DNA of 64,000 nt from Rhodospirillales bacterium (GCA_965222355.1 OZ244953.1:4230714-4294713), one strand, 5' to 3'. Counted from the stretch's first letter, positions 11,301-63,556 are shown. Program-made: numbers and translations. Notes: generated by a model from the letters alone, not told the origin.

Positions 11301-11302
11301 TT

Positions 11303-11400
11303 CCCCTCACCCGGCGCGCAAGCGCGCCACCCTCTCCCCAAGGAGAGGGATGATCGGACATTGGTCCCCTCTCCCTCGGGAGAGGGACAGGGTGAGGGGG
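11303..11400. repeat. Family B palindromic intergenic element
   Basis: CCCTCACCC...CCCTCTCCC...GGAGAGGG...CCCTCTCCC...GGGAGAGGG...GGGTGAGGG, between convergent genes. Confidence 0.9.
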
Positions 11401-11406
11401 TGATGG

Positions 11407-14368: not shown

Positions 14369-15751
14369 TCAGCATTCGGTGATATTGACGGCCAAGCCGC
14401 CCTGCGACGTTTCCTTATACTTCGAGAGCATGTCGACGCCCGTCTGGCGCATCGTCTCGATGGCGCTGTCGAGCGGCACGAAGTGCGTGCCGTCACCCCT
14501 AAGCGCCAGCGATGCCGCATTGACCGCTTTCACCGCGCCCATCGCGTTGCGCTCGATGCACGGCACCTGAACCAATCCGCCGACCGGATCGCACGTCATC
14601 CCCAAGTGATGTTCGATCGCGATCTCGGCGGCGTTCTCGATCTGCGCGTTGGTGCCGCCCAAAACAGCACATAAACCCGCCGCCGCCATCGCCGCCGCCG
14701 AGCCGACTTCGCCCTGGCAGCCGACTTCCGCCCCCGAGATCGAGGCCTTGGTCTTGATGATCCCGCCGATCGCGGCGGCGGTTAACAGAAAGTCGTCGAC
14801 CGTGTCTTCGCTCGCGTCGGGACAGAACTCAAGATAGTAGCGGATCGTCGCCGGGATCACGCCCGCGGCCCCGTTCGTCGGCGCGGTCACGATGCGCCCG
14901 CCGGCCGCGTTCTCTTCATTCACCGCGATGGCATAGAGGCTGATCCAGTCCATCACCGAATGCGCGTACTTCACGTTACGGGTGGTGTCGGCTTCGAGGG
15001 CGTCGGAAATCTGCCGGGCCCGGCGTTTGACCTTAAGACCGCCCGGCAGCTGACCGTCGGTTGCGATGCCCCGGTCCATGCAGTCTTTCATCACCAACCA
15101 GATGGTATCCAGGCGTTCTCGGACGTCGGCTTCCGAATGCTGGGAGATTTCGTTCTCGAACTTCATTTCGGCGATCGTCTTACCGGCAGTCTCCCCCATC
15201 TTCAGCATTTCAGCGGCGTCGCGAAACGGATACGGGACGTCCGGGTATTCCCCACCCGACGATGCGAAGTCCGCGAACTCCGATTTGGTGACGACGAAAC
15301 CGCCGCCCACCGAGAAATAGGTGTCGCTCAGGATCGGGTTGCCGCTTTCGTCGTACGCCGTCACCAGCATTCCGTTGGTGTGCTCTTCAAGGGGATCGTC
15401 GAAGTCGAAAATAACGTCGCGGTCGAAATCGAAATTAAGCCCCTTGAGCGGCCCGCGCGACAGCGACTTCGTTTCGATCACCCCGTCGACCAGTTTGTTC
15501 ACGTCGGCGGGGTCGATCCTGTCCGGTTTCTCGCCCAGAAGCCCCAGCACGACCGCACGGTCAGTACCATGCCCCTTGCCGGTGTAGGCGAGTGACCCAT
15601 AGAGCGTGACCACAACACGGGAGACGGACGTTTCGTTCCCCGATGCCGAGAGATCGGCCAGAAAACGGCCCATCGCCACCATCGGCCCCACGGTATGCGA
15701 ACTCGACGGTCCAATGCCGACTTTGAAAAGATCGAAAACACTTAAAAACAT
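14369..15751 (-). CDS. sdaA: L-serine ammonia-lyase (Fe-S)
   Basis: [69 protein letters not shown]. Confidence 0.95.
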
Positions 15752-15959
15752 AAATTGCCTCTTTTGAAATTCGCTGGACGGTAGCCGAGGGTGTTAATCC
15801 GGGCAAGCAGCGTATCGACGCGAATTATCGATCAACCGACGTCACTTCGGCAAATTCCGAGACAATTTCCCGCCTACGTGATTGGACACCCTGCCGGGCG
15901 GTCTGATACCTTTCGACTACGGCGGCATCGCTCGCCGCTTATCTACGGAGGAAGCTCAG

Positions 15960-16925
15960 ATGATACCGATGTCCGTCGTCAGGAAGACGGCGCGCGAGCT
16001 CATGGACAGGGCGGCTATCGAGATCCCGGACGATTATCTGACGGGATTGAAAAAGGCCGCGGACAACGAAGACGGTGACCTGTCGTCGTTCGTCCTCCAC
16101 GCCATGCTTGAGAACTATGAAGCCGCGAAAGAGGACCGCCGCGCCATGTGCGCCGACACCGGCGTGCCGCGCTGGTATGTGAAGATGGGCAACGAGGCGA
16201 CGCTCGAGGGTGGCCCCGTCGCACTCGAAGAAGCCCTCAGGGGCGCCACGGCGGAAGCGACCGACGGCGTACCGCTGAGGCCCAACCGGGTGCACCCCCT
16301 CTGGCGCACCGATCACAACAACAACGTTGGTTTGAACGCACCGGAAATCGAATATTCGTTCGAACCGGGCGGCGACTGGATCGACCTGACGACCGTCCAC
16401 AAGGGCGGGTTGTTCGGGACGGATTACCGCATGCTGTTCCCGGGCGACGGGATCGAGGGGATCAAACGCTTCTATCTCGACTGCCTGATGGCGTTTGGAA
16501 AGCGCGGCCTCGCCTGTCAGCCGGCCATCATCGGCGTGGGCTTGGGCGGGTCGAAGGATATCTGCTCGGTGCTTGGCAAGCAGGCGGCGTGTTTGAGGAC
16601 CGTCGGCGACCGCAACCCGGACCCGCGGACGGCGGAACTCGAGCTTGAACTTATGGAGCTCGGTAACTCCATCGGCATGGGCGCCATGGGTTTCGTCGGC
16701 AAGTCGATGGTCATAGATTGCCATATCGAATGCGGCTACACGCACACCGGCGGCATGCCGATGAGCGTGCACGCCTTCTGCCTGTCGTCCAGGCGCGCGG
16801 TGGCGCGCGTATACGGCGACGGCCGGGTCGAGTTTCGTACCGACCCGAACTGGTTTACCCCTTACATGAGACGGGAGACGGTCGGATGGGAACCGGAAGC
16901 GGAAAGCTTAAGACAGTCAGTCTGA
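15960..16925 (+). CDS. Fe-S hydro-lyase alpha subunit (tartrate dehydratase TtdA / class I fumarase N-terminal family), divergent
   Basis: GGAGG RBS; MCADTG, LRPN.VHP, ACQPAIIGVGLGG, IGMGAMGFVG, AFCLSSRR. Confidence 0.8.
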   Translation: MIPMSVVRKTARELMDRAAIEIPDDYLTGLKKAADNEDGDLSSFVLHAMLENYEAAKEDRRAMCADTGVPRWYVKMGNEATLEGGPVALEEALRGATAEATDGVPLRPNRVHPLWRTDHNNNVGLNAPEIEYSFEPGGDWIDLTTVHKGGLFGTDYRMLFPGDGIEGIKRFYLDCLMAFGKRGLACQPAIIGVGLGGSKDICSVLGKQAACLRTVGDRNPDPRTAELELELMELGNSIGMGAMGFVGKSMVIDCHIECGYTHTGGMPMSVHAFCLSSRRAVARVYGDGRVEFRTDPNWFTPYMRRETVGWEPEAESLRQSV

Positions 16926-17566
16926 ACCTCCCGGTTACGACCGAGGATCTGAAGGACATCGAGATCGGCACCGTGGTCTATCTGAACGGTGTCGTCTACA
17001 CGGCGCGCGAAGGCGTTTATAAAAAGGTGATCGAGGACGGCGAACAGCTCCCCGCGCACCTGCACGAAACGTCCAACGCCAACTTCCACTGCTCGCCCGC
17101 CGCGACACGTAACGCGGACGGGACGTACAACGTCGGTGCGATGACGGGCACCGCATCGTTCCGGTTCTCGAAATGGCTGGAAGACTGGTTCCGCATCTCG
17201 AAGGCCAAGATCATCATCGGCAAGGGCGGTATGTCGTCGGCGGACTACAAAAAATACTTCGTCCCCAACGGTGCGATCTACCTGACCACGGTCGGTTATG
17301 GCACCGGTGCGTTACTGGGCCGGGGGATCAAGGGCATCAGGGATGTTCACTGGTTCGACGAACTGGGTGTCGCACAGGCCATGTGGATGGTCGAGGTCGA
17401 GAACTTCGGCCCGTTCATTGCCGACAGCGACCTTGAAGGGAATTCCCTGTTCGAACGTGAGAACGCGAAAATCCGCGAGGGTGTCGACAAGCTCTATGAA
17501 GGGACGAAGGAACCGGCGCTGCATCGTTACGGCGAGAGCAATAACCGCGGCGACGAGGTGATCTGA
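16886..17566 (+). CDS. Fe-S hydro-lyase beta subunit (TtdB / fumarase C-terminal family)
   Basis: LPVTTEDLKDIEIGTVVYLNGVVYTARE, FHCSPA, GTASFRFSK, IIGKGGM, ELGVAQAMW.VEVENFGPFI. Confidence 0.8.
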   Translation: MGTGSGKLKTVSLNLPVTTEDLKDIEIGTVVYLNGVVYTAREGVYKKVIEDGEQLPAHLHETSNANFHCSPAATRNADGTYNVGAMTGTASFRFSKWLEDWFRISKAKIIIGKGGMSSADYKKYFVPNGAIYLTTVGYGTGALLGRGIKGIRDVHWFDELGVAQAMWMVEVENFGPFIADSDLEGNSLFERENAKIREGVDKLYEGTKEPALHRYGESNNRGDEVI

Positions 17567-17587
17567 AGACCGCGTTACTTCTCCATC

Positions 17588-17660
17588 GTCATCCCCGCGA
17601 ACGCGGGGATCCAGGGCAACCGATCGGCAATTGCTGGGTTCCCGCGTTCGCGGGAATGAC
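17588..17660. repeat. Family A REP-like full palindromic element
   Basis: GTCATCCCCGCGAACGCGGGGATCCA...TGGGTTCCCGCGTTCGCGGGAATGAC. Confidence 0.9.
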
Positions 17661-17671
17661 AAGGTTGTTTT

Positions 17672-18295
17672 TCAATACTCCCGGCCCGGGCGGGCTTTAT
17701 AGCTGGGCAGCGACAGCGCCTTGGCGATGCCGAACGCGCGCAGGATAAAGCCGGCGGCAAAGCCCGCGCATGCCGAGATTTCGAACGGCAGCTCCGCCAG
17801 CGTCAGCACCACGTGCACCGTCGCCGCCAGCGCGGCGCAGGTTGCATAGACCTCTTTTTTCAGGATCAGGGGCGTTTCGCCGCAGATCACATCCCTGAGC
17901 AGCCCCCCAAATGTCGCCGTCATCATCCCCATCACGATGGCGACGAGCGGCCCCGCGCCCGACAACAGCGCCAGTTCCGCGCCCATGACCCCGTATAGTG
18001 CAATCCCGAGGGCATCCGCCCATAACAAGACCGGATAGCGGCGCTGAACCTTGTGCGCGGTGAAGAAGACCAGGAGCGCGATCGCAAGACATATCCAGAT
18101 CGCCCGGGGATCCGAAATCCAGAATACCGGACGATCCAGCAACAGATCGCGCAACGTACCACCACCAACGCCCGTCAGGCTGGCCATCAGCCCGAAACCG
18201 ATCAGGTCCATCTCTTTCCGGCTCGCAACCAGCGCGCCAGACGCCGCGAAGACGATCACGCCCATGATGTCGAGTACGATAATAAGTGTGTGCAT
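17672..18295 (-). CDS. UPF0126/YadS trimeric intracellular cation channel family membrane protein
   Basis: FAASGAL, GVGGGTLRDLLL, DALGIA, ATFGGLLRDVI, KEVYAT. Confidence 0.9.
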   Translation of the reverse strand: MHTLIIVLDIMGVIVFAASGALVASRKEMDLIGFGLMASLTGVGGGTLRDLLLDRPVFWISDPRAIWICLAIALLVFFTAHKVQRRYPVLLWADALGIALYGVMGAELALLSGAGPLVAIVMGMMTATFGGLLRDVICGETPLILKKEVYATCAALAATVHVVLTLAELPFEISACAGFAAGFILRAFGIAKALSLPSYKARPGREY

Positions 18296-18397
18296 ATGTC
18301 CCGGCGCCCCCGAACGTCAGCCTGAATTCAATTCGGGATTCATCATACCCGTGAAATCGTTGCCGGTCTTTATGCGTCCCGAAACAAGCCCCCGAGG

Positions 18398-19492
18398 CTA
18401 TTCCCGGCGTTCATGCGCGAACTTGATGAGCGCACCCAGACGATAGACGGCGTGCGCCATCTTCCCATAAGGGAACGTCACGAACATCGCCAGCACGATC
18501 CCAAGATGCACGGCCAAGAGCGTGCCCATCGCCGCGGTCTCACGCAGCGCCAGAAGCGCAAGTCCGGTGATACCGGTCAAGATCAGCAGCCACAAAAAGG
18601 CGATGTCCATCCCCGTCCTTTTCGTGTCCTGGGGGGCGGTGTCGGCGGTCTTTTTCATCATCAACAGGCCGATCGGCCCGATCACGATGCCGATGCCGCC
18701 CACCGTCCCCAATATCACGGGGATCGAGAAGTAGTCATAAGGCGCTTCCCAGCCGAACACATAGTGATAGACCGTCGCCACGCTGGTCGCGGCGAAGCAC
18801 AGAATAAAGCCCCACATGGTCATCTGGTGGGCGTGCCTGCGGCCCATCGAGAAATTGTCGTTGGGATAGTTACAGCCGTGCCCACCACCGGCCATATATT
18901 TCATCTGACCGGCGTCCTTGAACGCCTGGATCAACGCCGAGGGATTTAACAGCTCGCCCGGTTTCCCGCCGATGTCGCGCCAGAATTTGACGAGCCCGAC
19001 GATAAACGCGACGCCCGCGAATAAAAATGGCGCGGAGGCCAGATAAACGATCACATCATGCGGGATCACCTGATAGAACGCGCCCGTCCCCGTGTGCACC
19101 CCCGTGACCACGTCGGCCCCTTGCACGACAAAGACGCCCACCGTCACCGCGATGGTCAGAACTAAAGTGATCAGGGCGATCCATTTGGCATTGCCCTCGA
19201 ACAACCCCTTGAACATGCCGGGCCAGGCGTAATCACGATAGGTCTCGCCACGCAATTCGGCGAACGCCTTCGGGACGTTGACCATGAACTCGTGAGGTGG
19301 GGTGTACTGACACGCGTAATAGCAGCCCTGGCAGCCATGGCAGAGGTTTGCCAGATACGTCACGTCGCCGTCCGAAAACGTCAGACGTTTGTTCATCGCC
19401 GGGAACACGGCGCAATAACCTTCGCAGTATCTACACGCGTTGCAGATCTGCATGACGCGTTTGGCTTCTTTCAAAGTCTCAGTTGCGGGCAT
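18398..19492 (-). CDS. tcuB: Tricarballylate utilization 4Fe-4S membrane protein
   Basis: ICNACRYCEGYCAVFPAM, LANLCHGCQGCYYACQY.PPHEF.VNVP, transmembrane C-terminal half with YGKMAH. Confidence 0.85.
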   Translation of the reverse strand: MPATETLKEAKRVMQICNACRYCEGYCAVFPAMNKRLTFSDGDVTYLANLCHGCQGCYYACQYTPPHEFMVNVPKAFAELRGETYRDYAWPGMFKGLFEGNAKWIALITLVLTIAVTVGVFVVQGADVVTGVHTGTGAFYQVIPHDVIVYLASAPFLFAGVAFIVGLVKFWRDIGGKPGELLNPSALIQAFKDAGQMKYMAGGGHGCNYPNDNFSMGRRHAHQMTMWGFILCFAATSVATVYHYVFGWEAPYDYFSIPVILGTVGGIGIVIGPIGLLMMKKTADTAPQDTKRTGMDIAFLWLLILTGITGLALLALRETAAMGTLLAVHLGIVLAMFVTFPYGKMAHAVYRLGALIKFAHERRE

Positions 19493-20882
19493 GACGCGCG
19501 GCCTCCTCGCCTGCGATGCGGCCGAACACGTTGCCGATCGCCATTCCGGTGCCACCGGCATAGCCTTGACCGAGAATATTCCCGGCCATGATCTCGCCCG
19601 CCGCCCAGATGTTCTCGGCGGGCTTGCCGTCATTCATGAAGACTTGGGCCTGACGGTTCACCTCAAGGCCCAGATACGTAAACGTGATCCCCATCCGGAC
19701 CGGGTATCCGTAATAAGGGGGCGTGTCGATCTTGCGGGCCCAGTTGGATTTCTTGGGCTCCACACCCTCCGTGTGGCAGCCGTCCGGCTCGGTCGCGTTG
19801 AATTCGCCCGGGATGACGGCGCTGTTAAAGTCTTCGATGGTCTTTTCCATGGTTTCGGCGTCGACACCCAACTGTTCGGCGAGACCGGATAATGTGTCTG
19901 ACTGGAACGGCTCATAAACCGTCGGCATGAACAGGCCCATCGATTTGCTGTCGATGACCGCATAGGCGACCTGATCGGGTTGTTTCGCGACAAGCCGCCC
20001 CCAGATCGCATAGCGCTTGGGCCAGATATCCTCGCCCTCGTCATAGAACCGCTCACCGTTCTTGTTCACGACGACCGAGAAGATCACGCAGTCGATCCGC
20101 GTCGAAATCCCGCCGTCGAACTTGGGGGCGCGGCCGTCGATGGCGACGGCGTGGCACTGGTCGGGCGCGCCGATCGGCTTGGCGCCGTTATCGAGCATCG
20201 ATCTGAGCACTTTCCCCGTGTTCATCGGCGAGCCGCGCACGAGAAAGTTATCGGCGATCTCGCCCCAGCCTTCCTTCAGCCATTCGATGTTCGCTTCGAA
20301 CCCGCCCGACGCGAGTACGACGGTCCGGGCTTCGACCCGGTGCAGTTCGCCCCCTTGGCGCACCATTGCGGCGGTGAAACGCGCGCCATCCATCTCGATC
20401 TTTTCGACTTCGGCTTCGTAAACGATGTCGATCCCGGCTTTCTCGGCCGCCTTGAAATAGGCGTTCATCATGCCCTTGCCGCCACCCAGAAAAAACGCGT
20501 TGGTGCGCGCAAGCCCGAGCGTTCCCGATAACGGCGGCTGGAACTTGATGCCCTGAGAAAGCATCCAGTCGACGCAATCATCCGACGCGTCGATCATGAA
20601 GCGCATCAGGTCTTCGTTGGTGTTCCCATCCGTGACCCGCATCAAATCCTTGAAATATTCATCGGCATCGTAGCGCCCGGTGACGTAGTCCGTCGCCGCA
20701 TTGTGGCTGTAGCGGATGTTGCGGACATGCCGGCTGTTGCCGCCGCGCAAATCCTTGTTGGCGCTCTCGATCATCAGCACCGAGGCGCCCCTGGCCCGGG
20801 CCGTCAAAGCCGCTGACATGGCCGCATTCCCGGCCCCGAGAACGAGCACATCGTGCGGTCGGGTAAACTCTTCTGGCGGCAA
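19479..20882 (-). CDS. tcuA: FAD-dependent tricarballylate dehydrogenase (TcuA/CobZ-N family)
   Basis: DVLVLGAGNAAMSAA, GGNSRHVRN, TNAFFLGGGK, HAVAIDGRAPKFDGGI.TRID, DIWPKRYAIWGRL, GITFTYLG; likely TTG start at 20882 after a GGAG RBS. Confidence 0.85.
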   Translation of the reverse strand: MPPEEFTRPHDVLVLGAGNAAMSAALTARARGASVLMIESANKDLRGGNSRHVRNIRYSHNAATDYVTGRYDADEYFKDLMRVTDGNTNEDLMRFMIDASDDCVDWMLSQGIKFQPPLSGTLGLARTNAFFLGGGKGMMNAYFKAAEKAGIDIVYEAEVEKIEMDGARFTAAMVRQGGELHRVEARTVVLASGGFEANIEWLKEGWGEIADNFLVRGSPMNTGKVLRSMLDNGAKPIGAPDQCHAVAIDGRAPKFDGGISTRIDCVIFSVVVNKNGERFYDEGEDIWPKRYAIWGRLVAKQPDQVAYAVIDSKSMGLFMPTVYEPFQSDTLSGLAEQLGVDAETMEKTIEDFNSAVIPGEFNATEPDGCHTEGVEPKKSNWARKIDTPPYYGYPVRMGITFTYLGLEVNRQAQVFMNDGKPAENIWAAGEIMAGNILGQGYAGGTGMAIGNVFGRIAGEEAARHARN

Positions 20883-20997
20883 AACGTAACTCCGTGGCCG
20901 GACCGGCCGATTTGAATAGACAGTGACAGCAAACATAGCCGCCGATAGCATACGCTTCAAAATAAATAAGCCGAGTGGGACATTTAGGGAGCCATCC

Positions 20998-21771
20998 ATG
21001 AGCACCGCCACCGAATTCAAGCAGAAAATCAGCGATGCGGAGTGGCAGACGCGGGTCGATCTGGCCGCGTGTTTCCGCCTCGTGCACATGTACGGCTGGT
21101 CGGACCTGCTGGCGACCCACCTGTCGGCACGCGTTCCCGACGCCGACGACCAGTTCCTGATCAATCCGTTCGGATTGATGTTCGAGGAAATGACCGCATC
21201 CTCGCTCGTCAAGGTGGACGAGGACGGGAACGAGCTATCCCCCTCGGAATTGGGGATCAACCCCGCCGGGTTCGTCATTCATTCGGCGGTGCATATGGCG
21301 AGGCCCGAAGTCGCCTGCGTCATCCACACCCACACACAGGCGGGTGTGGGGGTCGCAACGCAGAAGAACGGGCTTCTTCCCCTCACCCAGCAGGCGCTGG
21401 CCGTCATCGCGCACACCGGCTATCACGATTACGAAGGGATTGCCTTCGACCTTTCCGAGCGCGACCGCCTCGCCCGCGATCTTAAAGACAACAAGGTGCT
21501 GATTTTAAGGAATCACGGCTTGCTGACGGTGGGGAATACAGTCGCCGAAGCCTTCATGTGGATGTACCGGGCCGAACGGGCGTGCCGGTTCCAGCTCAAG
21601 TTCCAGCAGGCGGGTGTCGCGCCGACGGAAATCTCGGAAGAGATGCAGCAGGTCACCATCGAGCGGAACAGGAAAGCGAATTCGAAAGACGGCTATCGCC
21701 CGATCGGCGTCAACGAATGGCCGGCGCTTTTACGGAAGCTCGATCGGGAAAACCCGGGTTACGACGTTTAA
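20998..21771 (+). CDS. Class II aldolase/adducin family protein
   Basis: RVDLAACFRL, THLSARVP, INPAGFVIHSAVH, HTHT, LRNHGLLT. Confidence 0.9.
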   Translation: MSTATEFKQKISDAEWQTRVDLAACFRLVHMYGWSDLLATHLSARVPDADDQFLINPFGLMFEEMTASSLVKVDEDGNELSPSELGINPAGFVIHSAVHMARPEVACVIHTHTQAGVGVATQKNGLLPLTQQALAVIAHTGYHDYEGIAFDLSERDRLARDLKDNKVLILRNHGLLTVGNTVAEAFMWMYRAERACRFQLKFQQAGVAPTEISEEMQQVTIERNRKANSKDGYRPIGVNEWPALLRKLDRENPGYDV

Positions 21772-21781
21772 AGACGATTGC

Positions 21782-21874
21782 CCCCTCACCCGGCGCTGCG
21801 CGCCACCCTCTCCCGAGGGAGAGGGGTGTTTCGTCGGGGTCCCTTCTCCCTTGGGAGAAGGACAGGATGAGGGG
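21782..21874. repeat. Family B palindromic intergenic element
   Basis: CCCCTCACCCGGCGC...CCCTCTCCCGAGGGAGAGGG...GGATGAGGGG, between convergent genes. Confidence 0.9.
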
Positions 21875-21881
21875 CAGCAAT

Positions 21882-22460
21882 CTATTCGAAAGCCGGTTCG
21901 ACGCCGGACGGCAGGCCAACCTCGAACGCGTTCAGAATGTGCGAAATCGTGGCGTAGTACCCGGCAAGGAACACCAGTTCCGTAACCCCCTGCTCGCCCA
22001 ATAGATCGAGCGCCTTTTTATAAAGATCGTCCGAAACCCGGTTCTTCGACTGAAGATCGGACACGAATTGATAGACCGTCGCTTCCGCCGGGTCGGCAGG
22101 GATTTCGCCCGCCATCACGGCATCGATGGTTTCTTGGGAGAGCCCCTCTTTTTTACCCACGTTGACATGCGCCCACCATTCGTATTCGGCCTCAAAATGA
22201 CGGCCGACGGTGATGATCGCAAGCTCGCGGAGTGTCGCCGGAATAATCGTCTCGTATCTCAGCTTACCGCCTAACTGCTGCAGAAGATTGCCCATTTCGG
22301 GGGAATACAGCATGGCGTTGAAGGGACCGCGAAGCGCCCCCTCCTCGTTCAGCATTTCCGCCGGATTTCCCTTGGCGCGGGGGCCGCCGGTAATGCCGTC
22401 GAACACCAGTTTCTGCGCTTCGCTCATCGTGTCCGCGGGGACGGGGCCTAGTCTGCTCAT
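21882..22460 (-). CDS. Carboxymuconolactone decarboxylase/AhpD-like protein
   Basis: GPFNAMLYSP, LRELAII, YEWWAHV..G...GLS; no CxxC. Confidence 0.85.
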   Translation of the reverse strand: MSRLGPVPADTMSEAQKLVFDGITGGPRAKGNPAEMLNEEGALRGPFNAMLYSPEMGNLLQQLGGKLRYETIIPATLRELAIITVGRHFEAEYEWWAHVNVGKKEGLSQETIDAVMAGEIPADPAEATVYQFVSDLQSKNRVSDDLYKKALDLLGEQGVTELVFLAGYYATISHILNAFEVGLPSGVEPAFE

Positions 22461-23599
22461 TTCTCACCTGCCGCTTTCTTGACGTTCTCCGGATTGGGCG
22501 GGTTGCCCGGCACCGGTTCGCCGGCCATCGCCGGATGCGAGCGCTGGTACTGCGGCGGGAAAGCCGCATGCGCGCGCAGCGTTTCCGCCGCGTGCCACGC
22601 CCAGCGCGGATCGTAGAGCATCCCCCTGGCCAGCGCCACCATGTCCGCCTGCCCCGTCTTGACGATGTGTTCGGCCTGGATCGGGTCGGTGATCTTGCCC
22701 ACCGCCATCGTCGCGAGACCGGTTTCGCGGCGGATATCGGCGGCGAAGTGGGTCTGGTAACCGGGCCCGACGGGAATCTGCTGATGGGGTGAGTTGCCCC
22801 CCGACGACACATCGATGAAGTCGCAGTCGCGCTTCTTCAGTTCCTTCGCATAGGCGATGCTGCCGGTTAAATCCCATCCCCCCTCGACCCAGTCGGTCGC
22901 GGAAATACGCACACCCATCGGGATATCGTCAGGAACGACCGCCCGGACCGCATCGAAGACCTCGAGGGGGAATTTCATCCGGCCCTCTAAAGATCCCCCG
23001 TACGCGTCGTTACGGCGGTTGGAGATCGGCGACAGGAACTGATGCATCAGATAGCCGTGCGCGTTGTGGATTTCGATGCATTTGAAACCGAGGCGGACGG
23101 AGCGTTTCGCGGCTTCGACGAAGCTGGTGCGGACCCGCTCCAGCGTTTCGTCGGTCATCGCTTCCGGGACGTGCCACCCATCGGCGTAGGGCTCGGCGGA
23201 CGGCCCAACCGTCTGCCAGGCGCCGTTACTCTGGTCGAGCGGCTTCCCCCCGTTCCACGGGACGTCGACGCTCGCCTTACGGCCGGCGTGCGCGAGCTGA
23301 ATACCGACGGGCGTATTTCCGTATGACGTCGCGAAGTCGAGGACGCGTTTGAGCGCGGCTTCGTTCTCGTCCGACCATAAACCGACGCAGCCTGGCGTGA
23401 TGCGGCCTTCGGGTTCGGTGCCCGTCGCTTCGACGAACAGCAGCCCGTTGCCGCCGACCGCGAACTGGCCCAGATGCATCAGGTGCCAGTCGTTGGCGTT
23501 GCCGTCATGGGCCGAATACTGGCACATCGGCGCAACGACGATGCGGTTGGGCATTTCCAGCCCGCGCAGGTTGATGGGCGTAAAAAGAACGCTGCTCAT
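22457..23599 (-). CDS. NADH:flavin oxidoreductase (old yellow enzyme, YqjM/NamA-like)
   Basis: NRIVVAPMCQYSA, GIQLAHAGRKAS, EIHNAHGYL.HQFLSP.SN.R.D.YGGS, RISATDW. Confidence 0.9.
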   Translation of the reverse strand: MSSVLFTPINLRGLEMPNRIVVAPMCQYSAHDGNANDWHLMHLGQFAVGGNGLLFVEATGTEPEGRITPGCVGLWSDENEAALKRVLDFATSYGNTPVGIQLAHAGRKASVDVPWNGGKPLDQSNGAWQTVGPSAEPYADGWHVPEAMTDETLERVRTSFVEAAKRSVRLGFKCIEIHNAHGYLMHQFLSPISNRRNDAYGGSLEGRMKFPLEVFDAVRAVVPDDIPMGVRISATDWVEGGWDLTGSIAYAKELKKRDCDFIDVSSGGNSPHQQIPVGPGYQTHFAADIRRETGLATMAVGKITDPIQAEHIVKTGQADMVALARGMLYDPRWAWHAAETLRAHAAFPPQYQRSHPAMAGEPVPGNPPNPENVKKAAGEK

Positions 23600-23702
23600 G
23601 TGATCCCCCCGGGAATTGACGTCTAGGTGTGCTGCCTTAATGTTGGCATGCAGCACCCACCCGTCAATACGCTCTGCGCGCCCCCGGGACGATCATTGAG
23701 CT

Positions 23703-29755: not shown

Positions 29756-30628
29756 TTATTTGAAGGCCTCGTTCAAAGCATCGCCGACATGCACCGGGGT
29801 CGACAACACGTTGACGCCCGCCGCTTCGAGTGCGGTCTTCTTGGACGCGTACGTGCCCTTGTCGCCCATCACGATGGCGCCGGCATGGCCCATCTTCTTA
29901 CCCGGCGGCGCGGCGCCCCCGGCGATGAAGGCGATCACGGGCTTCTTCATGGTTTTCGCGTATTCGGCCGCGTCCTCTTCCATGGCGCCGCCGATCTCAC
30001 CCACCATGACGACCGCTTCGGTGCCCGGGAAGTTATCGAGCGCTTCCAGCGCATCGCGGGTCGTCGTCCCGATCACCGGGTCGCCGCCGATGCCGACGAA
30101 CGCGGTCTGGCCGTATCCCGCCGTGACGATGTTCTGACACATGAGCGTCCCCAGAGAACCGGAACGCGAGAGAACCCCGACCGTGCCCTTTTTGAAGATG
30201 CGCTCGTTGAACGCCGGCATGAAGCCCATGAACGTTTCACCCACCGTGACGCCGCCCGCGGTGTTGGGGCCGACGACGCGGGTGCCCGCCTCTTTCGCCG
30301 CCGCCATCACATACATCACGTCGTGGACCGGCACATGCTCGGTGAGGCACAGGATCATCTTGGCCCCACCCTCGATCGCGTCCAACGCCGCCGCCTTAAC
30401 CCCCAAGGGCGGGATGAACAAGAGGGTTGCGTCGAAACCGGTGTCTTTCTGGGCGTCGACGGCGGACGCATGCACCGGCACACCGCAGTGTTCGGTGCCG
30501 GCCTTTTTCGGGTTCACACCACCGACCACGGTGGCGCCGTATTCCTGCATGCGTTCGGTCCAGAAGGTGCCCTGCTTGCCGGTGATCCCCTGAACAAGGA
30601 TGCGTGTCTCTTTACGTGGGATAATCAT
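29756..30628 (-). CDS. Succinyl-CoA synthetase-like ADP-forming CoA ligase, alpha subunit (probable sulfoacetate-CoA ligase)
   Basis: VQGITGKQG, GPNTAG, SRSGSLG, GIGGDP, GKKMGHAGAI (phospho-His); operonic with SauS. Confidence 0.8.
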   Translation of the reverse strand: MIIPRKETRILVQGITGKQGTFWTERMQEYGATVVGGVNPKKAGTEHCGVPVHASAVDAQKDTGFDATLLFIPPLGVKAAALDAIEGGAKMILCLTEHVPVHDVMYVMAAAKEAGTRVVGPNTAGGVTVGETFMGFMPAFNERIFKKGTVGVLSRSGSLGTLMCQNIVTAGYGQTAFVGIGGDPVIGTTTRDALEALDNFPGTEAVVMVGEIGGAMEEDAAEYAKTMKKPVIAFIAGGAAPPGKKMGHAGAIVMGDKGTYASKKTALEAAGVNVLSTPVHVGDALNEAFK

Positions 30629-31761
30629 CATGCACCCCCTTTCGCGGCGTCGACGGCGGCCTTGCAGGCCGCGCTCATGTTGGGGAGCGGGTCCATATTC
30701 AGCTTATCCTTCAACATCCGGATCGCCTCTTCGTCGCCGGTGCCGGCGATGGAAAAGAAGACGGGGATGTCGGGCTTGAGTTCCTCCCAAGCACCGAGGA
30801 GCCCTTCCATCATCACGTCGCAGCGCGCGAACGCGCCGCAGAAATTGACGACCAGGCTTTTGATGCCGGGTTTGGCGAGCACCATTTCAAGCGCGAACCT
30901 GGCCTTGGTATAGGCTTCGCCCCCGATCTCGCAGAAATTGGCGGGCGCGCCGCCGTGGTGGCGGACGACGTCCATGGTGGTCATGGTGAGCCCGGCACCG
31001 TTGGCCAGCACGCAAACATCGCCGTCCAGTTCGATGTATTTGATCCCCGCGCTCTCTCCACGCGCTTCGAGCTCGGTCAATTTCTCCGGCGCGCCGTTCT
31101 TGGCCAGCTCTTCCTGGCGCTTGATGGCGCTGTCGTCGAGGGTGAACTTGCAATCCAGCGCCACGACGGAGCCGTCGCCGGTAACAATGAGGGGGTTGAT
31201 CTCGAGCAGTTCGGCGTCATTCACCATATAGGCGTCATAGAGCTTCACCAGCGTATCGGCGACACCCGCCTCGGCGCCTTCCAGATCGACACCCGACAGT
31301 AATGTGTTCGCGTCTTCGAGGCTGAAGCCTTTTCGGATATCGACCGCGTGCGTCTTCAGCTTTTCGGGGGTTTCGGCGGCGATCTCCTCGATATCCATGC
31401 CGCCCTCGGTCGAGAACATGACCATCGGCCCCTTCGAAACCGGGTCGTTTAGGACGGCCGCATAATATTCGCGGCGAATGTCGGATTTCTCCTCGATCAA
31501 CACCTTCTCGACGGTGTGAATGCCGATGGTCATCCCCAGGATCGCTTCGGCGTGGGCTTTCGCCTCGTCGGGCGTGTCGGCAAGCTTGATACCGCCCGCC
31601 TTACCCCGCTTGCCCGTCGGGACCTGCGCCTTGACGACGCAGCCGCCGAGTTTCGCTGCCGCTTCCCCCGCCGCATCGGCGTGATAGACCAGAATGCTTT
31701 GAGGCACCTTGATCCCGCTCTGCGCCAACAGCGGCTTCGCCGCGTATTCTTCGAAGTTCAT
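30628..31761 (-). CDS. Succinyl-CoA synthetase-like ADP-forming CoA ligase, beta subunit (probable sulfoacetate-CoA ligase)
   Basis: VKAQVPTGKRGKAGGIK, EINPL, ALDCK, NGAGL; the SucC NIFGGI motif is replaced by NFCGAF. Start MNFEEY at 31761. Confidence 0.8.
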   Translation of the reverse strand: MNFEEYAAKPLLAQSGIKVPQSILVYHADAAGEAAAKLGGCVVKAQVPTGKRGKAGGIKLADTPDEAKAHAEAILGMTIGIHTVEKVLIEEKSDIRREYYAAVLNDPVSKGPMVMFSTEGGMDIEEIAAETPEKLKTHAVDIRKGFSLEDANTLLSGVDLEGAEAGVADTLVKLYDAYMVNDAELLEINPLIVTGDGSVVALDCKFTLDDSAIKRQEELAKNGAPEKLTELEARGESAGIKYIELDGDVCVLANGAGLTMTTMDVVRHHGGAPANFCEIGGEAYTKARFALEMVLAKPGIKSLVVNFCGAFARCDVMMEGLLGAWEELKPDIPVFFSIAGTGDEEAIRMLKDKLNMDPLPNMSAACKAAVDAAKGGA

Positions 31762-31797
31762 TCGGATGTTTCCCTTGGTGGTCCTTGATTTCATCTC

Positions 31798-31857
31798 GTC
31801 ATCCCCGCGAAAGCGGGGACCCATATTCGACGAGATCCCCGCCTGCGCGGGGATGAC
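31798..31857. repeat. Family A REP-like full palindromic element
   Basis: GTCATCCCCGCGAAAGCGGGGACCCA...GATCCCCGCCTGCGCGGGGATGAC. Confidence 0.9.
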
Positions 31858-31876
31858 GCTCAGGCAAGCCTTCGCG

Positions 31877-33307
31877 TCACTTCCCGAATTTTTCCCAGTA
31901 GCTGCCGAACAGCTCTTCTTCGGAGGGTTTGTCTTCGGGGATTGTTTTCACGAGATGCGTGATGTTGATGAAGTGGGTGTAGTTGAGGTTGTCGGAGATC
32001 GAGTTCCCGGCCCACGTCCCCCCACCCATCGAGAGCGTGAAGTTCAGGCCGTTGTTGTAGCCGCCGCCATTACCAAACGTGTGCGCCTGGTTGACGAGAA
32101 CGCGGACCACGTCGATCTCTTCGGCGAGGCGCGTCGCGTGCGCGGCCTCTTTCGTGTGGATCCCCACCGAGTGCCCCTTCCCGCAGACATCGAGAATAAC
32201 GTTCAACTGACGGACCACGTCGTCCATGTCCTTGGCGCGGTAAACCGTCAGCACGAGGGACAGTTTCTCGTCGATGAACGGGCTTTCCGGGTTGGTGTCG
32301 CCCTCTTCCACCATAAAGAACTTGTTGCCCTTGGCCTGATCGCCCAGACCGAACACGTCGGCCAGCACGTCGGCGTCCTTGGCGATGACATGACGGTTGA
32401 GGTGCCCGTCGACCCACAGATTGTCTTCGACCTTCTGTTTTTCTTCGGCCGTGCAGAGATAACCGCCGGCGCGCTTCAAAGCTTCCATCGCTTCGTCATA
32501 AACGCTGTCGAGGATGATCACCGAGTTCTCGGACGAACAAGACGTCGCGTTGTCGAAGATCTTCGACATGGTGATCTTTTCCGCCGCGTCGTCGAAATCC
32601 GCACTCTCGTCGATGACGACGGGGACGTTGCCCGCCCCCACCCCGATCGCCGGGGTGCCCGACGAATAGGCGCGCTTCACGTTGTTTTGGGAACCGGTCA
32701 CGATCACCAGGTCGCACTGGTTCATCAGTTCCTGGGTCAGCTGCTTGTTGACCGGCGCCGGAAGAACCTGAACCAAGTCCGCGGGAAGGCCGATCTTTTC
32801 CAGTTCGGCGCGCATGTAGTTGACGGTCTTGGTCGTCGTGCCCAGACCCGCGGGCGACGGCGCGATGATCACCGCGTTGCGGCCCTTGATCGCGAACATC
32901 GCTTTGTTGACGGGGGTCGCGGCGGGGTTCGTCGACGGCGTTACCGCACCGACGACACCGACCGGCTTCGCGTATTTGACGAGACCCTTTTCGGGAATTT
33001 CCTCGATCACACCGACCGACTTCACCCGCGACAGATCGCGCAAGCACCCGAACGTCTTGCGGGTGTTCTTGATGATCTTGCTTTCGACATTCCCAAGACC
33101 GGTATCTTCGACCGCAAGCTCCGCCAGCTCGCGGGCGCGGCCCGGCTCGTAGATTGCCCAGGCGAGCGCCGTCACCGCTTCATCCACGCGCGCCTGATCG
33201 GCATTGGCGAACTGGGCCATGGCGGCGCGCCCCTTGGCGATCAGTCCACGGATGATTTCCTTTTCGGGGCCTTGGTCAGGCGCTTTGGCGGCAGCTTGGG
33301 TGCTCAT
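31877..33307 (-). CDS. sauS: Acylating (CoA-dependent) sulfoacetaldehyde dehydrogenase
   Basis: DTGLGNV..K..KN.RKT, PVGVVGAVTPSTNPAATP.NK, TGSQNNV..AY.SGTPA.GVGAGNV, SK.FDNATSCSSENS, NQAHTFGNGG..NG..F.LSMG.GTW.GN..SDNL and the C-terminal ...EKFGK match my recollection of SauS. Confidence 0.8.
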   Translation of the reverse strand: MSTQAAAKAPDQGPEKEIIRGLIAKGRAAMAQFANADQARVDEAVTALAWAIYEPGRARELAELAVEDTGLGNVESKIIKNTRKTFGCLRDLSRVKSVGVIEEIPEKGLVKYAKPVGVVGAVTPSTNPAATPVNKAMFAIKGRNAVIIAPSPAGLGTTTKTVNYMRAELEKIGLPADLVQVLPAPVNKQLTQELMNQCDLVIVTGSQNNVKRAYSSGTPAIGVGAGNVPVVIDESADFDDAAEKITMSKIFDNATSCSSENSVIILDSVYDEAMEALKRAGGYLCTAEEKQKVEDNLWVDGHLNRHVIAKDADVLADVFGLGDQAKGNKFFMVEEGDTNPESPFIDEKLSLVLTVYRAKDMDDVVRQLNVILDVCGKGHSVGIHTKEAAHATRLAEEIDVVRVLVNQAHTFGNGGGYNNGLNFTLSMGGGTWAGNSISDNLNYTHFINITHLVKTIPEDKPSEEELFGSYWEKFGK

Positions 33308-61777: not shown

Positions 61778-63556
61778 TTAATCGGCGCCCGCCTGCGGCT
61801 GCATATCGGCGGCGCTGATGCCGGCAACCTGCGTCGGCGCCTTCATGGCATCGCGGCGGAACGGCTCACCCAGTTCCTGGTTGATCAGTGCTTCGATGAA
61901 CACCGTCTCGCCGTTCTTCTGGGCTTCGATGGCCTTACCGAGTTCCTCGGTCAGTTGTTCCATCGTCGCCACCTGCACACCCTTCACGCCGCAAGCTTCG
62001 GCGATCTTGGCGTATTGGACGTCGAGGTCGAGCTCGGTGCCGACGAAGTTGTCGTCATACCAGAGGGTGGTGTTGCGCTTTTCCGCGCCCCACTGATAGT
62101 TGCGGAAGATCACCATCGTGATCGCCGGCCATTCTTCGCGTCCGACAGCGGTCATTTCGTTCATCGAGATACCGAACGCCCCGTCACCGGCGAAACCGAT
62201 CACCGGCGTATCCGGGCACGCGATCTTGGCGCCGACGATTGACGGGAAGCCGTAACCGCAAGGACCGAACAGGCCAGGGGCGAGATAGCGGCGGCCCTTT
62301 TCGAAGGTCGGGTAGGCGTTGCCGATGGCGCAGTTGTTGCCGATGTCGGACGACATGATGAAGTCCTTCGGCAGCGCCGCCTGTATGGCGCGCCACGCCA
62401 TACGCGGCGACATCCAGTCGGGTTTCGCATCACGGGCGCGCTGGTTCCACGTGGTGCCCGGATCGTCGTCTTCATGGTCCATCGACGAAAGCTGCTGCAG
62501 CCAGGCGGAGCGGGTCTGGTGAATGGTCTCTTCACGCTCCTTGCGGTTGGCATCGCCGGCGTCGGCGGGCAACTGAGCCAGAATTTGCTCGGCGACCAGT
62601 TTGGCGTCGCCCTGGATCGCGACCGAAACTTTCTTGGTCAGACCGATGCGGTCGGCGTTCATATCGACCTGGATCACTTTCGCGTCTTTCGGCCAGTAAT
62701 CGATCCCGTACCCCGGCAGCGTCGAGAACGGATTAAGGCGCGTGCCCAGGCACAGCACCACGTCGGCTTTGGAGATCAATTCCATGCCCGCTTTCGAGCC
62801 GTTGTAGCCGAGCGGCCCGGCGAACAGCGGATGCGAACCCGGGAACGCGTCGTTATGCTGATAGCCGCAGCAGACCGGCGCGGAGAGTTTCTCGGCCAGC
62901 GCGGCCGAGGCCGGAATACCGCCCGACAGCACCACACCGGCGCCGTTCAGGATGACCGGGAACTTGGCCGACGCCAAAAGCTTGGCCGCTTCGGAAACCG
63001 CTTTCGCACCGCCCGCCGGACGCTCGAGGCGCACGATTTCGGGAATTTCGATATCGACGACCTGGGTCCAATAGTCGCGCGGCACGTTGATCTGCGCCGG
63101 GGCGGAACCACGCCACGCCTGTTCGATCACCCGGTTCAGGACTTCGGCGATCCGCGTCGGGTCGCGCACTTCTTCCTGATAGCAGACCATATCTTCGAAC
63201 AAAGCCATCTGCGGAATTTCCTGGAAACCACCCTGACCGATGGTCTTGTTGGCGGCCTGCGGGGTGACGAGAAGCAGCGGCGTGTGGTTCCAGTACGCCG
63301 TCTTGACCGGCGTCACGAAGTTGGTGATGCCCGGGCCGTTCTGCGCGATCATCATGCTCATCTTACCGCTGGAGCGGGTAAAGCCGTCGGCCATCATGCC
63401 GGCGTTGCACTCATGCGCGCAGTCCCAGAACGTGATCCCGGCGGTCGGGAACAGGTCCGACACCGGCATCATGGCAGACCCGATAATACCGAACGCGTGT
63501 TCGATCCCATGCTTCTGCAGAACTTTTACGAATGCTTCCTCAGTCGTCATTTTCAT
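61778..63556 (-). CDS. xsc: Sulfoacetaldehyde acetyltransferase
   Basis: MKMTTEEAFVKVLQ.HGIEHAFGIIGSA, WDCAHE, QNGPGITNFVT..KTAYWNHTP, SSDIGNNCAIGNAYP.F, QWGAEKRN, GEPFRRDAM. Confidence 0.95.
   Translation of the reverse strand: MKMTTEEAFVKVLQKHGIEHAFGIIGSAMMPVSDLFPTAGITFWDCAHECNAGMMADGFTRSSGKMSMMIAQNGPGITNFVTPVKTAYWNHTPLLLVTPQAANKTIGQGGFQEIPQMALFEDMVCYQEEVRDPTRIAEVLNRVIEQAWRGSAPAQINVPRDYWTQVVDIEIPEIVRLERPAGGAKAVSEAAKLLASAKFPVILNGAGVVLSGGIPASAALAEKLSAPVCCGYQHNDAFPGSHPLFAGPLGYNGSKAGMELISKADVVLCLGTRLNPFSTLPGYGIDYWPKDAKVIQVDMNADRIGLTKKVSVAIQGDAKLVAEQILAQLPADAGDANRKEREETIHQTRSAWLQQLSSMDHEDDDPGTTWNQRARDAKPDWMSPRMAWRAIQAALPKDFIMSSDIGNNCAIGNAYPTFEKGRRYLAPGLFGPCGYGFPSIVGAKIACPDTPVIGFAGDGAFGISMNEMTAVGREEWPAITMVIFRNYQWGAEKRNTTLWYDDNFVGTELDLDVQYAKIAEACGVKGVQVATMEQLTEELGKAIEAQKNGETVFIEALINQELGEPFRRDAMKAPTQVAGISAADMQPQAGAD

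What the first reader, a model, noticed from the sequence alone, without database searches (positions are those of the whole stretch)
15960..20882. Divergent Fe-S hydro-lyase next to TcuAB: a possible succinate-fumarate-malate-like route for another acid
Seen: the TtdA/fumarase-type alpha subunit has altered signatures (CADTG for CQDTG, KGGLFG for KGGG(S/C)E, CQP for CPP). It lies within 1 kb of tcuAB, and no tcuC or tcuR is present. Established: TcuA performs FAD-dependent alpha,beta-desaturation (tricarballylate to cis-aconitate), and this hydro-lyase family hydrates or dehydrates alkene acids. Inference: desaturase plus hydratase form a two-step module. It could act on tricarballylate/aconitate, or, given the organosulfonate genes in this window, on a sulfonate analogue (3-sulfopropionate to sulfoacrylate to sulfolactate). 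TcuAB also resembles a split CobZ, so that role cannot be excluded.
Basis: partly seen in the sequence, partly recalled or inferred. Interest (0 to 1): 0.62.

Follow-up and report, generated by a model that had tools for sequence, protein, structure and literature searches.

The report
Sulfonate-type Fe-S hydratase beside TcuAB
The odd fumarase-like enzyme is real, but in other bacteria it is paired with a special succinate-dehydrogenase look-alike in sulfonate-breakdown gene clusters, so it probably hydrates sulfoacrylate from 3-sulfopropionate, and its TcuAB neighbour here is most likely a bystander.

Summary
Window 15960-17566 encodes a two-subunit class-I-fumarase-family Fe-S hydro-lyase (HL1) with CADTG, KGGLFG and CQP. 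Bona fide tcuB and tcuA lie 831 bp away, convergent. No tcuC or tcuR lies within 10 kb.

HL1 is not a fumarase or a tartrate dehydratase. It misses every NCBIfam equivalog cut-off and lacks residues essential in M. jannaschii fumarase (Q61, G147, T81). The genome has FumC and a FumA-type enzyme elsewhere.

HL1 belongs to a tight family (68-99% identity). In 56 of 80 loci its members sit next to a dedicated four-subunit Sdh-like complex, among TauE, sulfite-oxidase-like, YeiH, TTT-transporter and LysR genes. Among 301 Alphaproteobacteria, all 20 HL1 genomes carry the Sdh-like complex (p = 3e-26). Only 3 carry TcuA (p = 0.12).

TcuAB-HL1 linkage is confined to the window's genus plus one other locus. 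This genome has the Sdh-like complex, with an embedded TauE, about 0.96 Mb away. A SuyAB/ComC/SlcC-like sulfolactate module lies 108 kb upstream.

Best reading: HL1 hydrates sulfoacrylate in a 3-sulfopropionate pathway. That route is known only from a thesis citation and its genes are unpublished.

The parts
15960..16925 (+). HL1 alpha subunit: class-I-fumarase-family [4Fe-4S] hydro-lyase, divergent type (CADTG / KGGLFG / CQP).
   Evidence: PF05681 230 bits. It falls below the fumarase (206 vs 276) and TtdA (154 vs 365) equivalog cut-offs. It is 78-99% identical to 80 loci.
16886..17566 (+). HL1 beta subunit, overlapping alpha by 40 nt.
   Evidence: PF05683 86 bits. All equivalog cut-offs are missed. 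R32, T80, R84 and K104 are kept; T81 is Ala.
14369..15751 (-). L-serine ammonia-lyase (sdaA), divergent from HL1. Conserved neighbour only within the genus.
   Evidence: TIGR00720 642 bits vs 345. Present next to HL1 in same-genus loci L007-L016 only.
17672..18295 (-). UPF0126/YadS-type membrane protein lying between HL1 and tcuB.
   Evidence: PF03458 148 bits. Conserved after HL1 in genus loci and in L017.
18398..19492 (-). TcuB: membrane Fe-S/haem electron-transfer partner of TcuA.
   Evidence: TIGR02484 423 bits vs 247; NF011607 453 vs 524.
19479..20882 (-). TcuA: FAD-dependent tricarballylate-dehydrogenase-type flavoprotein. Start is TTG at 20882 or ATG at 20936.
   Evidence: NF006130 678 bits vs 369; TIGR02485 562 vs 373. 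Start codons checked.
20998..21771 (+). Class II aldolase/adducin-family protein, divergent from tcuA. Genus-conserved neighbour of tcuA.
   Evidence: NF005451 353 bits vs 207. Adjacent to TcuA in L008, L010, L012, L014 and L015.
29756..33307 (-). SCS-like ADP-forming CoA ligase (alpha 29756-30631, beta 30628-31824) plus acylating sulfoacetaldehyde dehydrogenase SauS (31877-33307). Sulfonate context in the window.
   Evidence: NF047625 786 bits vs 600. The SCS subunits fall just under the succinyl-CoA ligase cut-offs.
61778..63556 (-). Xsc, sulfoacetaldehyde acetyltransferase. Sulfonate context in the window.
   Evidence: NF005713 1027 bits vs 620; TIGR03457 948 vs 676.

Best explanation
HL1 (15960-17566) is the hydratase of a succinate-to-malate-like route for a sulfonated succinate analogue, most likely 3-sulfopropionate. 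A dedicated quinone-linked Sdh-like complex desaturates 3-sulfopropionate to 3-sulfoacrylate. HL1, a [4Fe-4S] enzyme with a remodelled substrate clamp, then adds water. The product is probably 3-sulfolactate, which this genome can desulfonate with a SuyAB/ComC/SlcC-like module. In nearly all other carriers the Sdh-like genes sit directly upstream of HL1. In the window's genus the two are unlinked: the Sdh-like operon with an embedded TauE lies about 0.96 Mb away. HL1 instead happens to lie near tcuAB, an ordinary-looking tricarballylate-dehydrogenase pair that is most likely not its partner. Shown: family membership, the altered active-site residues, gene linkage and co-occurrence statistics, and the sulfite/sulfonate context. 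Inferred: the substrate, the product, and that the distal Sdh-like complex feeds HL1.
For: (1) HL1 is not a fumarase or TtdAB. All NCBIfam equivalog cut-offs are missed. Q61 is Ala or Gly, the KGxGS loop (G147, S148) is KGGLF, and T81 is Ala. In MjFH, non-polar mutants of Q61 and T81 and the G147A mutant were inactive (bioRxiv 10.1101/2022.09.03.506457). The three Cys ligands, D62, R102, K144, H257, and beta R32, T80, R84 and K104 are kept. The genome has FumC (730 bits vs 665) and a FumA-type enzyme. (2) 56 of 80 HL1 loci have an SdhB-C-D-A-like set next to HL1, usually immediately upstream on the same strand. (3) In 301 Alphaproteobacteria all 20 HL1 genomes have the Sdh-like SdhA (Fisher p = 3e-26). 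It is adjacent in 16 of the 19 genomes other than the window's own. (4) Sulfite/sulfonate context of those operons: TauE in 26 loci, a sulfite-oxidase-type Mo domain in 5, YeiH in at least 4, a TTT transporter in about 25, LysR in 24. HL1 and Sdh-like genomes are enriched in Xsc (p = 1e-4 and 4e-8). (5) In the window's genome SdhB-C-D-TauE-SdhA lies at C1:835.8-839.7 kb and is 64-66% identical to the HL1-coupled type. There is only one divergent hydro-lyase in the genome. A split SuyA/SuyB-like lyase with Ldh_2 (ComC-like), a D-2-hydroxyacid dehydrogenase and GntR lies at C1:4.1346-4.139 Mb. (6) A sister operon type carries a canonical-motif paralogue (HL2) between TauE/Ssu-type ABC genes and SdhA. 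A SuyB-like gene and a 2-hydroxyacid dehydrogenase sit in the same gene cluster. (7) The window's HL1 clade nests among Sdh-coupled lineages with short branches, so there is no sign of a functional shift. (8) A pathway homotaurine -> 3-sulfopropionate -> sulfoacrylate -> sulfolactate was reported for Roseovarius nubinhibens in a thesis cited by PMC11489063. Several Roseovarius species carry the operon.
Against: In this genome HL1 and the Sdh-like operon are unlinked, and I found no shared operator. A same-family genome (G324) has the same SdhBCD-TauE-SdhA operon but no divergent hydro-lyase at all, so that complex may not need HL1. HL2 keeps a fully canonical active site yet sits in the SuyAB-linked operon. 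HL1's remodelled site may therefore mean a different substrate or regiochemistry. Seven of 20 HL1 genomes have neither Xsc nor a SuyB-like gene. TauE and TTT families are not specific to sulfonates.
Confidence: 0.5

Rival explanations
1. In this genus TcuAB is the desaturase that feeds HL1. It would oxidise 3-sulfopropionate or another (sulfo)carboxylate, and HL1 would hydrate the enoate.
For: HL1 and tcuAB stay 2.4-8.6 kb apart in every sufficiently complete genome of the genus. One unrelated contig (L045, Neomegalonema) has tcuA-tcuB-like genes (54% and 43% identity) directly upstream of the Sdh-like/HL1 operon on the same strand. TcuA genomes are enriched in Xsc (9/18, p = 7e-5). G324 shows that the local Sdh-like type can exist without a hydro-lyase.
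Against: The genes are convergent, with variable insertions between them. Outside the genus only 1 of about 69 loci has TcuAB within 10 kb. Genome co-occurrence is at chance level: 3/20, p = 0.12; excluding the window's own genome, 2/19, p = 0.32. In both of those other genomes the genes are on different contigs. TcuA scores as a standard TcuA. It is no closer to the L045 copy (54%) than to generic alphaproteobacterial TcuAs (55-61%). TcuAB neighbourhoods elsewhere share nothing. The Xsc enrichment weakens to 4/12 (p = 0.05) once Sdh-like genomes are removed, and it is ecologically confounded.
Confidence: 0.12
2. The pathway is the same but the chemistry differs. HL1 adds water at the sulfonate-bearing carbon of sulfoacrylate. 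The alpha-hydroxysulfonate then collapses to malonate semialdehyde plus sulfite, as in chloroacrylate dehalogenation. HL1 itself would be the desulfonating enzyme.
For: HL1 is remodelled mainly on the alpha-subunit, cluster-proximal side of the pocket (Q61, the KGxGS loop, CPP to CQP). The SuyAB-linked paralogue HL2 is canonical. HL1 operons carry sulfite-handling genes (TauE, Mo sulfite-oxidase-like, YeiH) but rarely a sulfolactate lyase. Seven of 20 HL1 genomes lack both Xsc and a SuyB-like gene. A CoA-acylating malonate/methylmalonate-semialdehyde dehydrogenase follows HL1 in Telmatospirillum (TIGR01722, 707 bits). A 60%-identical copy lies about 10 kb from the window genome's Sdh-like operon.
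Against: The semialdehyde dehydrogenase is adjacent in only 2 of 80 loci. The thesis route goes via sulfolactate. This genome has a full SuyAB-type module. CuyA was not tested. No chemistry was done.
Confidence: 0.2
3. HL1 and the Sdh-like complex act on a non-sulfonated dicarboxylate, for example methylsuccinate/mesaconate/citramalate or a tartrate or malate isomer. The TauE, YeiH and TTT genes would be generic anion transporters.
For: Both enzymes come from dicarboxylate families. TTT transporters mostly carry carboxylates. Enolase-superfamily and CoA-transferase genes occur in some clusters.
Against: Recurrent sulfite-oxidase-type, TauE, Ssu-type ABC and SuyB-like neighbours. Strong Xsc enrichment. 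No citramalyl-CoA lyase or similar genes were seen among the frequent neighbours.
Confidence: 0.13
4. HL1 is an ordinary fumarase or L-tartrate dehydratase.
For: Pfam Fumerase and Fumerase_C domains. Databases name its relatives 'fumarate hydratase' or 'tartrate dehydratase'.
Against: All equivalog cut-offs are missed. Essential Q61, G147 and T81 are replaced. FumC and a FumA-type enzyme are already present.
Confidence: 0.03

Closest known systems
Two-subunit class I fumarate hydratase (M. jannaschii MjFH, PDB 7XKY; Leishmania LmFH 5L2R)
   Same: Same fold families (PF05681 and PF05683). Three Cys ligands for a [4Fe-4S] cluster. Catalytic D62/H257 and T80. The Arg/Lys clamp R102, R32, R84 and K104.
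   Different: Q61 is Ala or Gly. The KGxGS loop is KGGLF with a changed length. T81 is Ala and CPP is CQP. Both subunits have C-terminal extensions. The scores fall below the fumarase equivalog cut-offs. The usual partner is an Sdh-like complex in sulfite-related clusters.
L(+)-tartrate dehydratase TtdAB
   Same: Split alpha/beta Fe-S hydro-lyase of the same superfamily.
   Different: NF006084 154 bits vs 365 and NF006082 112 bits vs 264. No tartrate genes nearby.
Homotaurine/3-sulfopropionate route of Roseovarius nubinhibens ISM (J. Mayer thesis, as cited in PMC11489063)
   Same: It postulates 3-sulfopropionate -> sulfoacrylate -> sulfolactate, which are exactly the steps an Sdh-like plus fumarase-like pair would catalyse. 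Roseovarius species carry the operon.
   Different: No genes or enzymes were named in any paper I could search. The link to HL1 is my inference.
TcuABC tricarballylate utilisation of Salmonella enterica
   Same: TcuA and TcuB here pass the NCBIfam TcuA and TcuB models. The known roles are FAD dehydrogenase plus FADH2:quinone oxidoreductase (PMC10468695).
   Different: No tcuC transporter or tcuR regulator nearby. The context is variable across Alphaproteobacteria.
SlcC/ComC-SuyAB-TauE sulfolactate desulfonation module (Chromohalobacter, Paracoccus; bioRxiv 10.1101/2023.08.01.551581)
   Same: The window's genome has a split SuyA/SuyB-like lyase, an Ldh_2 (ComC-like) enzyme and a D-2-hydroxyacid dehydrogenase in one cluster. 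This would be the downstream sink for sulfolactate.
   Different: It lies 108 kb from HL1. Its link to HL1 is inferred.

Membership tests
Class I (Fe-S) fumarate hydratase, two-subunit type | Fumerase and Fumerase_C domains | tested here: met
   PF05681 230 bits; PF05683 86 bits.
Class I (Fe-S) fumarate hydratase, two-subunit type | Three Cys ligands of the [4Fe-4S] cluster | tested here: met
   C64, C186 and C274 align with MjFH C60, C182 and C269.
Class I (Fe-S) fumarate hydratase, two-subunit type | Dicarboxylate clamp and KGxGS motif (Q61, G147, S148, T81) | tested here: not met
   Q is Ala, KGxGS is KGGLF, and T81 is Ala. Mutants at Q61, G147 and T81 were inactive in MjFH.
Class I (Fe-S) fumarate hydratase, two-subunit type | Score above the NCBIfam equivalog cut-off | tested here: not met
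   Alpha 206 vs 276; beta 121 vs 269.
L-tartrate dehydratase TtdAB | Score above the NCBIfam equivalog cut-offs | tested here: not met
   154 vs 365 and 112 vs 264.
Sdh-like-coupled divergent hydro-lyase (HL1 family; uncharacterised) | C(A/G)DTG + KGGLFG + CQP signature and at least about 70% identity to family members | tested here: met
   119 of 120 database hits and all 56 locus copies carry the signature. Identity is 78-99% across the 80 loci and 68-81% in the 301-genome sample.
Sdh-like-coupled divergent hydro-lyase (HL1 family; uncharacterised) | SdhB-C-D-A-like operon immediately upstream | tested here: not met
   Absent within 10 kb. It is present about 0.96 Mb away in the same genome.
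Sdh-like-coupled divergent hydro-lyase (HL1 family; uncharacterised) | Sulfoacrylate hydratase activity | not testable with these tools
The inference comes from context only.
TcuAB tricarballylate dehydrogenase system | TcuA and TcuB above the curated cut-offs | tested here: met
   NF006130 678 vs 369; TIGR02484 423 vs 247.
TcuAB tricarballylate dehydrogenase system | Operon with the tcuC transporter and tcuR regulator | tested here: not met
   No MFS or LysR gene within 10 kb.
CobZ (precorrin-3B synthase substitute) | Fused TcuA-like/TcuB-like polypeptide inside a cob cluster | tested here: not met
   Two separate genes overlapping by 14 nt. No cobalamin genes among the neighbours. The cobalamin pathway of the genome was not examined.

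The most novel reading that the evidence does not exclude
HL1 is a new kind of C-S-cleaving enzyme. It would be a [4Fe-4S] fumarase-family hydratase that adds water to the sulfonated carbon of sulfoacrylate and so releases sulfite and malonate semialdehyde without any known sulfo-lyase. In this genus a second quinone-linked flavoenzyme, TcuAB, may also feed it with a sulfonated enoate.
Probability: 0.15. Interest if true: 0.8.

Novelty: new variant of a known kind. Interest (0 to 1): 0.45.

Why it matters
3-Sulfopropionate is made from homotaurine and, in anaerobes, from sulfoquinovose and DHPS. Its degradation genes are not published: PMC11489063 and PMC12890257 call the mechanism unknown. 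A widespread Sdh-like plus HL1 pair would supply the missing steps of that branch of the sulfur cycle. It would also show respiratory complex II and Fe-S fumarase being copied for a sulfonate. For this window the practical lesson concerns annotation. The gene is not 'fumarate hydratase' or 'tartrate dehydratase', and its closeness to tcuAB should not be read as a pathway.

Tried and rejected
(1) Promoter and terminator scan of 15700-21100: counts equal to shuffles, uninformative.
(2) Search for a shared operator between the HL1 upstream region, the tcuA upstream region and the Sdh-like/TauE operon upstream regions: only RBS-like matches.
(4) Sulfopyruvate decarboxylase: ComD/ComE-like pair at C1:862.2-863.5 kb, but below the cut-offs (112 vs 148; 121 vs 221), so ambiguous.
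(5) Conserved neighbours of TcuAB in nine other Alphaproteobacteria: none beyond tcuA-tcuB.
(6) Synteny of the TcuAB locus in the sister genus (G324): not syntenic, uninformative.
(7) The TPP enzyme common in HL1 operons is not Xsc (170 vs 676 bits). Its role is unknown.
(8) Mayer & Cook 2009 (PMC2747907) is not held.
(9) HL1 loci lacking an Sdh-like neighbour (about 8 with enough flank) have unrelated contexts: radical SAM, hydantoinase, peptide ABC. They give no alternative partner.
(10) Tricarballylate/aconitate role for HL1: rejected, because aconitase already serves that step and HL1 does not track TcuA.

Full report
**Anatomy.**
The region holds these genes:
- sdaA at 14369-15751 (-).
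- HL1 alpha at 15960-16925 (+) and HL1 beta at 16886-17566 (+), overlapping by 40 nt.
- A UPF0126/YadS membrane gene at 17672-18295 (-).
- tcuB at 18398-19492 (-) and tcuA at 19479-20882 (-).
- A class II aldolase-family gene at 20998-21771 (+).
- CMD-family and OYE-family genes, then an ectoine cluster.

TcuA and TcuB pass their curated models. HL1 and tcuBA are convergent and 831 bp apart. No LysR or MFS gene lies within 10 kb.

**HL1 is not a fumarase or a tartrate dehydratase.**
Both subunits fall below every NCBIfam equivalog cut-off. The closest solved structure is the M. jannaschii two-subunit fumarase 7XKY. That enzyme's active site has been mapped by mutagenesis (bioRxiv 10.1101/2022.09.03.506457).
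- Kept in HL1: the three cluster cysteines, D62, R102, K144, H257, and beta R32, T80, R84 and K104.
- Replaced in HL1: Q61 (Ala here, Gly in many relatives), the KGxGS loop with G147 and S148 (KGGLF, different length), T81 (Ala), and CPP (CQP).
- In MjFH, mutants at Q61, G147 and T81 were inactive.

The genome also has FumC and a FumA-type enzyme. HL1 is therefore not needed for the TCA cycle.

**The family and its usual partner.**
HL1 has thousands of close relatives, all named fumarase or tartrate dehydratase by automatic annotation. I fetched 80 genome loci at 78-99% identity.
- In 56 loci a four-gene SdhB-C-D-A-like set lies next to HL1. It is usually directly upstream on the same strand, with overlapping stop and start codons.
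- Clustering all neighbouring ORFs gave the recurrent companions: TauE (26 loci), TTT transporter TctA/C/B (about 25), LysR (24), an unassigned TPP enzyme (15 or more), enolase-superfamily protein (7), a sulfite-oxidase-type molybdopterin protein (5), a family III CoA-transferase inserted between alpha and beta (5), and YeiH (4 or more).
- The TPP enzyme is not Xsc.

**Phylogenetic profiles.**
I sampled 301 Alphaproteobacteria evenly.

| Gene | Genomes with it | Overlap with the 20 HL1 genomes |
|---|---|---|
| HL1 | 20 | - |
| Sdh-like SdhA | 26 | 20 of 20 (Fisher p = 3e-26) |
| TcuA (51% identity or more) | 19 | 3 of 20 (p = 0.12) |

- The Sdh-like SdhA is adjacent to HL1 in 16 of the 19 genomes other than the window's own.
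- Excluding the window's own genome, TcuA is found in 2 of 19 HL1 genomes (p = 0.32). In both it lies on a different contig from HL1.
- Xsc is enriched in HL1 genomes (9/19, p = 1e-4) and in Sdh-like genomes (14/25, p = 4e-8).

**Where the TcuAB linkage occurs.**
It is a property of one genus. In 22 species of that genus HL1, TcuA and the Sdh-like complex are all core genes. HL1 and tcuA are always 2.4-8.6 kb apart, with variable insertions between them. HL1 and the Sdh-like operon are always 0.5-2 Mb apart. Outside the genus only L045 (Neomegalonema) has tcuAB-like genes, placed directly upstream of the Sdh-like/HL1 operon. On a tree, the genus clade nests among Sdh-coupled Rhodospirillales lineages with ordinary branch lengths. 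Uncoupling is therefore derived and shows no sign of a functional shift. About eight other loci also have HL1 alone, in unrelated contexts.

**The window's own genome (one 4.36-Mb contig).**
- An operon SdhB-SdhC-SdhD-TauE-SdhA lies at C1:835.8-839.7 kb, distinct from the housekeeping sdh genes. Next to it are a second TauE, an enolase-superfamily gene and a Glyoxalase_3 gene.
- Its SdhA is 68-73% identical to those of a second operon type found in relatives. That type reads SdhB-C-D-(TauE)-(Ssu-type ABC importer)-HL2 alpha-HL2 beta-SdhA, with a D-2-hydroxyacid dehydrogenase in the same cluster. A SuyB-like gene lies in the cluster in both cases where contigs allow the check.
- HL2 is only 34% identical to HL1 and keeps the canonical CQDTG, KGSGSEN, CPP and TTSAR motifs.
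- The window's genome lacks HL2. HL1 is its only divergent hydro-lyase.
- It also has a GntR-headed cluster at C1:4.1346-4.139 Mb, 108 kb upstream of HL1. That cluster holds a split SuyA/SuyB-like lyase, an Ldh_2 (ComC-like) enzyme and a D-2-hydroxyacid dehydrogenase. This is the architecture of the SlcC/ComC-SuyAB sulfolactate module (bioRxiv 10.1101/2023.08.01.551581).
- The window itself adds SauS with an SCS-like ligase, Xsc and sox genes.

**Interpretation.**
The simplest model is as follows. 3-Sulfopropionate is desaturated by the Sdh-like complex to sulfoacrylate. HL1 hydrates the sulfoacrylate. The sulfolactate formed is cleaved by the SuyAB-type module, and TauE and Sox handle the sulfite. 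The only literature trace of this route is a thesis result quoted in PMC11489063 for Roseovarius nubinhibens. Reviews state that 3-sulfopropionate degradation is unresolved.

**Caveats.**
- No biochemistry or expression data exist.
- A sister-genus genome (G324) has the same SdhBCD-TauE-SdhA operon with no divergent hydro-lyase.
- HL1's remodelled pocket contrasts with the canonical HL2. Seven of 20 HL1 genomes lack both Xsc and a SuyB-like gene. Both points leave room for a different regiochemistry, namely direct desulfonation to malonate semialdehyde.
- TcuA genomes are also enriched in Xsc (9/18). This falls to 4/12 once Sdh-like genomes are removed, and it is ecologically confounded.

**TcuAB.**
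On present evidence it is a standard tricarballylate-dehydrogenase pair (roles as in PMC10468695) without its Salmonella transporter and regulator. Its context varies across Alphaproteobacteria. A role with HL1 cannot be excluded but has little support.

**Earlier notes of this scan.**
I opened these after reaching the Sdh-like/3-sulfopropionate reading. Other agents read the Sdh-like/hydro-lyase operons the same way. The notes are not independent evidence. I re-derived the HL2/ABC operon type, the SuyAB link and the SauS call myself.

**Verdict.**
The sulfonate idea and the 'desaturase + hydratase' logic fit the hydro-lyase family. The desaturase, however, is the Sdh-like complex, not TcuAB.

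Noticed in passing
window 29756-33307: SauS (acylating sulfoacetaldehyde dehydrogenase, 786 bits vs 600) is co-oriented with SCS-like alpha and beta subunits that fall just under the succinyl-CoA ligase cut-offs. This is a sulfoacetate (or 3-sulfopropionate) CoA-activation module, like SauCD/HpfYZ.
   Followed up: partly
window 61778-63556: Xsc, sulfoacetaldehyde acetyltransferase, well above its cut-offs. Sox genes and flavocytochrome c sulfide dehydrogenase lie at about 44-52 kb.
   Followed up: partly
own genome C1:835789-839680 (L089:11787-15680): Sdh-like operon with a TauE gene inserted between SdhD and SdhA. It is flanked by Glyoxalase_3, an enolase-superfamily gene and a second TauE. 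The same layout occurs in sister genus G324, which has no divergent hydro-lyase.
   Followed up: partly
own genome C1:4134589-4139013 (L124:5590-10014): GntR gene, split SuyA/SuyB-like lyase, D-2-hydroxyacid dehydrogenase and Ldh_2 (ComC-like, best hit L-sulfolactate dehydrogenase). This is a sulfolactate desulfonation module. An assimilatory sulfite reductase lies next to it.
   Followed up: partly
L045:3031-11284: A Neomegalonema contig with tcuA-like, tcuB-like, SdhB-C-D-A-like and HL1 genes all on one strand. It is the only TcuAB/HL1 linkage found outside the window's genus.
   Followed up: partly
L077, L082, L086 (about 10927-12102): A family III CoA-transferase gene is inserted between HL1 alpha and beta in Marivita and Roseovarius gaetbuli type loci (5 loci). 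This hints at a CoA-ester variant of the pathway.
   Followed up: no
L093:911-11547, L094, L111: Second operon type: SuyB-like, SdhB-C-D, TauE, Ssu-type ABC importer, canonical-motif hydro-lyase HL2 alpha/beta, SdhA, and a 2-hydroxyacid dehydrogenase.
   Followed up: partly
301-genome sample: TcuA-bearing Alphaproteobacteria are enriched in Xsc (9/18 vs 29/282). Four of the six genomes with the HL2-type Sdh operon also have TcuA. No physical linkage was seen. This may be ecological.
   Followed up: partly
window 20998-23656: A class II aldolase-family gene is divergent from tcuA, followed by CMD-family and OYE-family genes. The aldolase-tcuA pairing is conserved in the genus and recurs loosely in one other genome (L105). 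Function unknown.
   Followed up: no
own genome C1:862189-863479 (L122:8190-9480): A ComD/ComE-like split TPP decarboxylase pair, below the sulfopyruvate decarboxylase cut-offs, lies beside a TTT transporter and an aldehyde dehydrogenase, 22 kb from the Sdh-like operon.
   Followed up: partly
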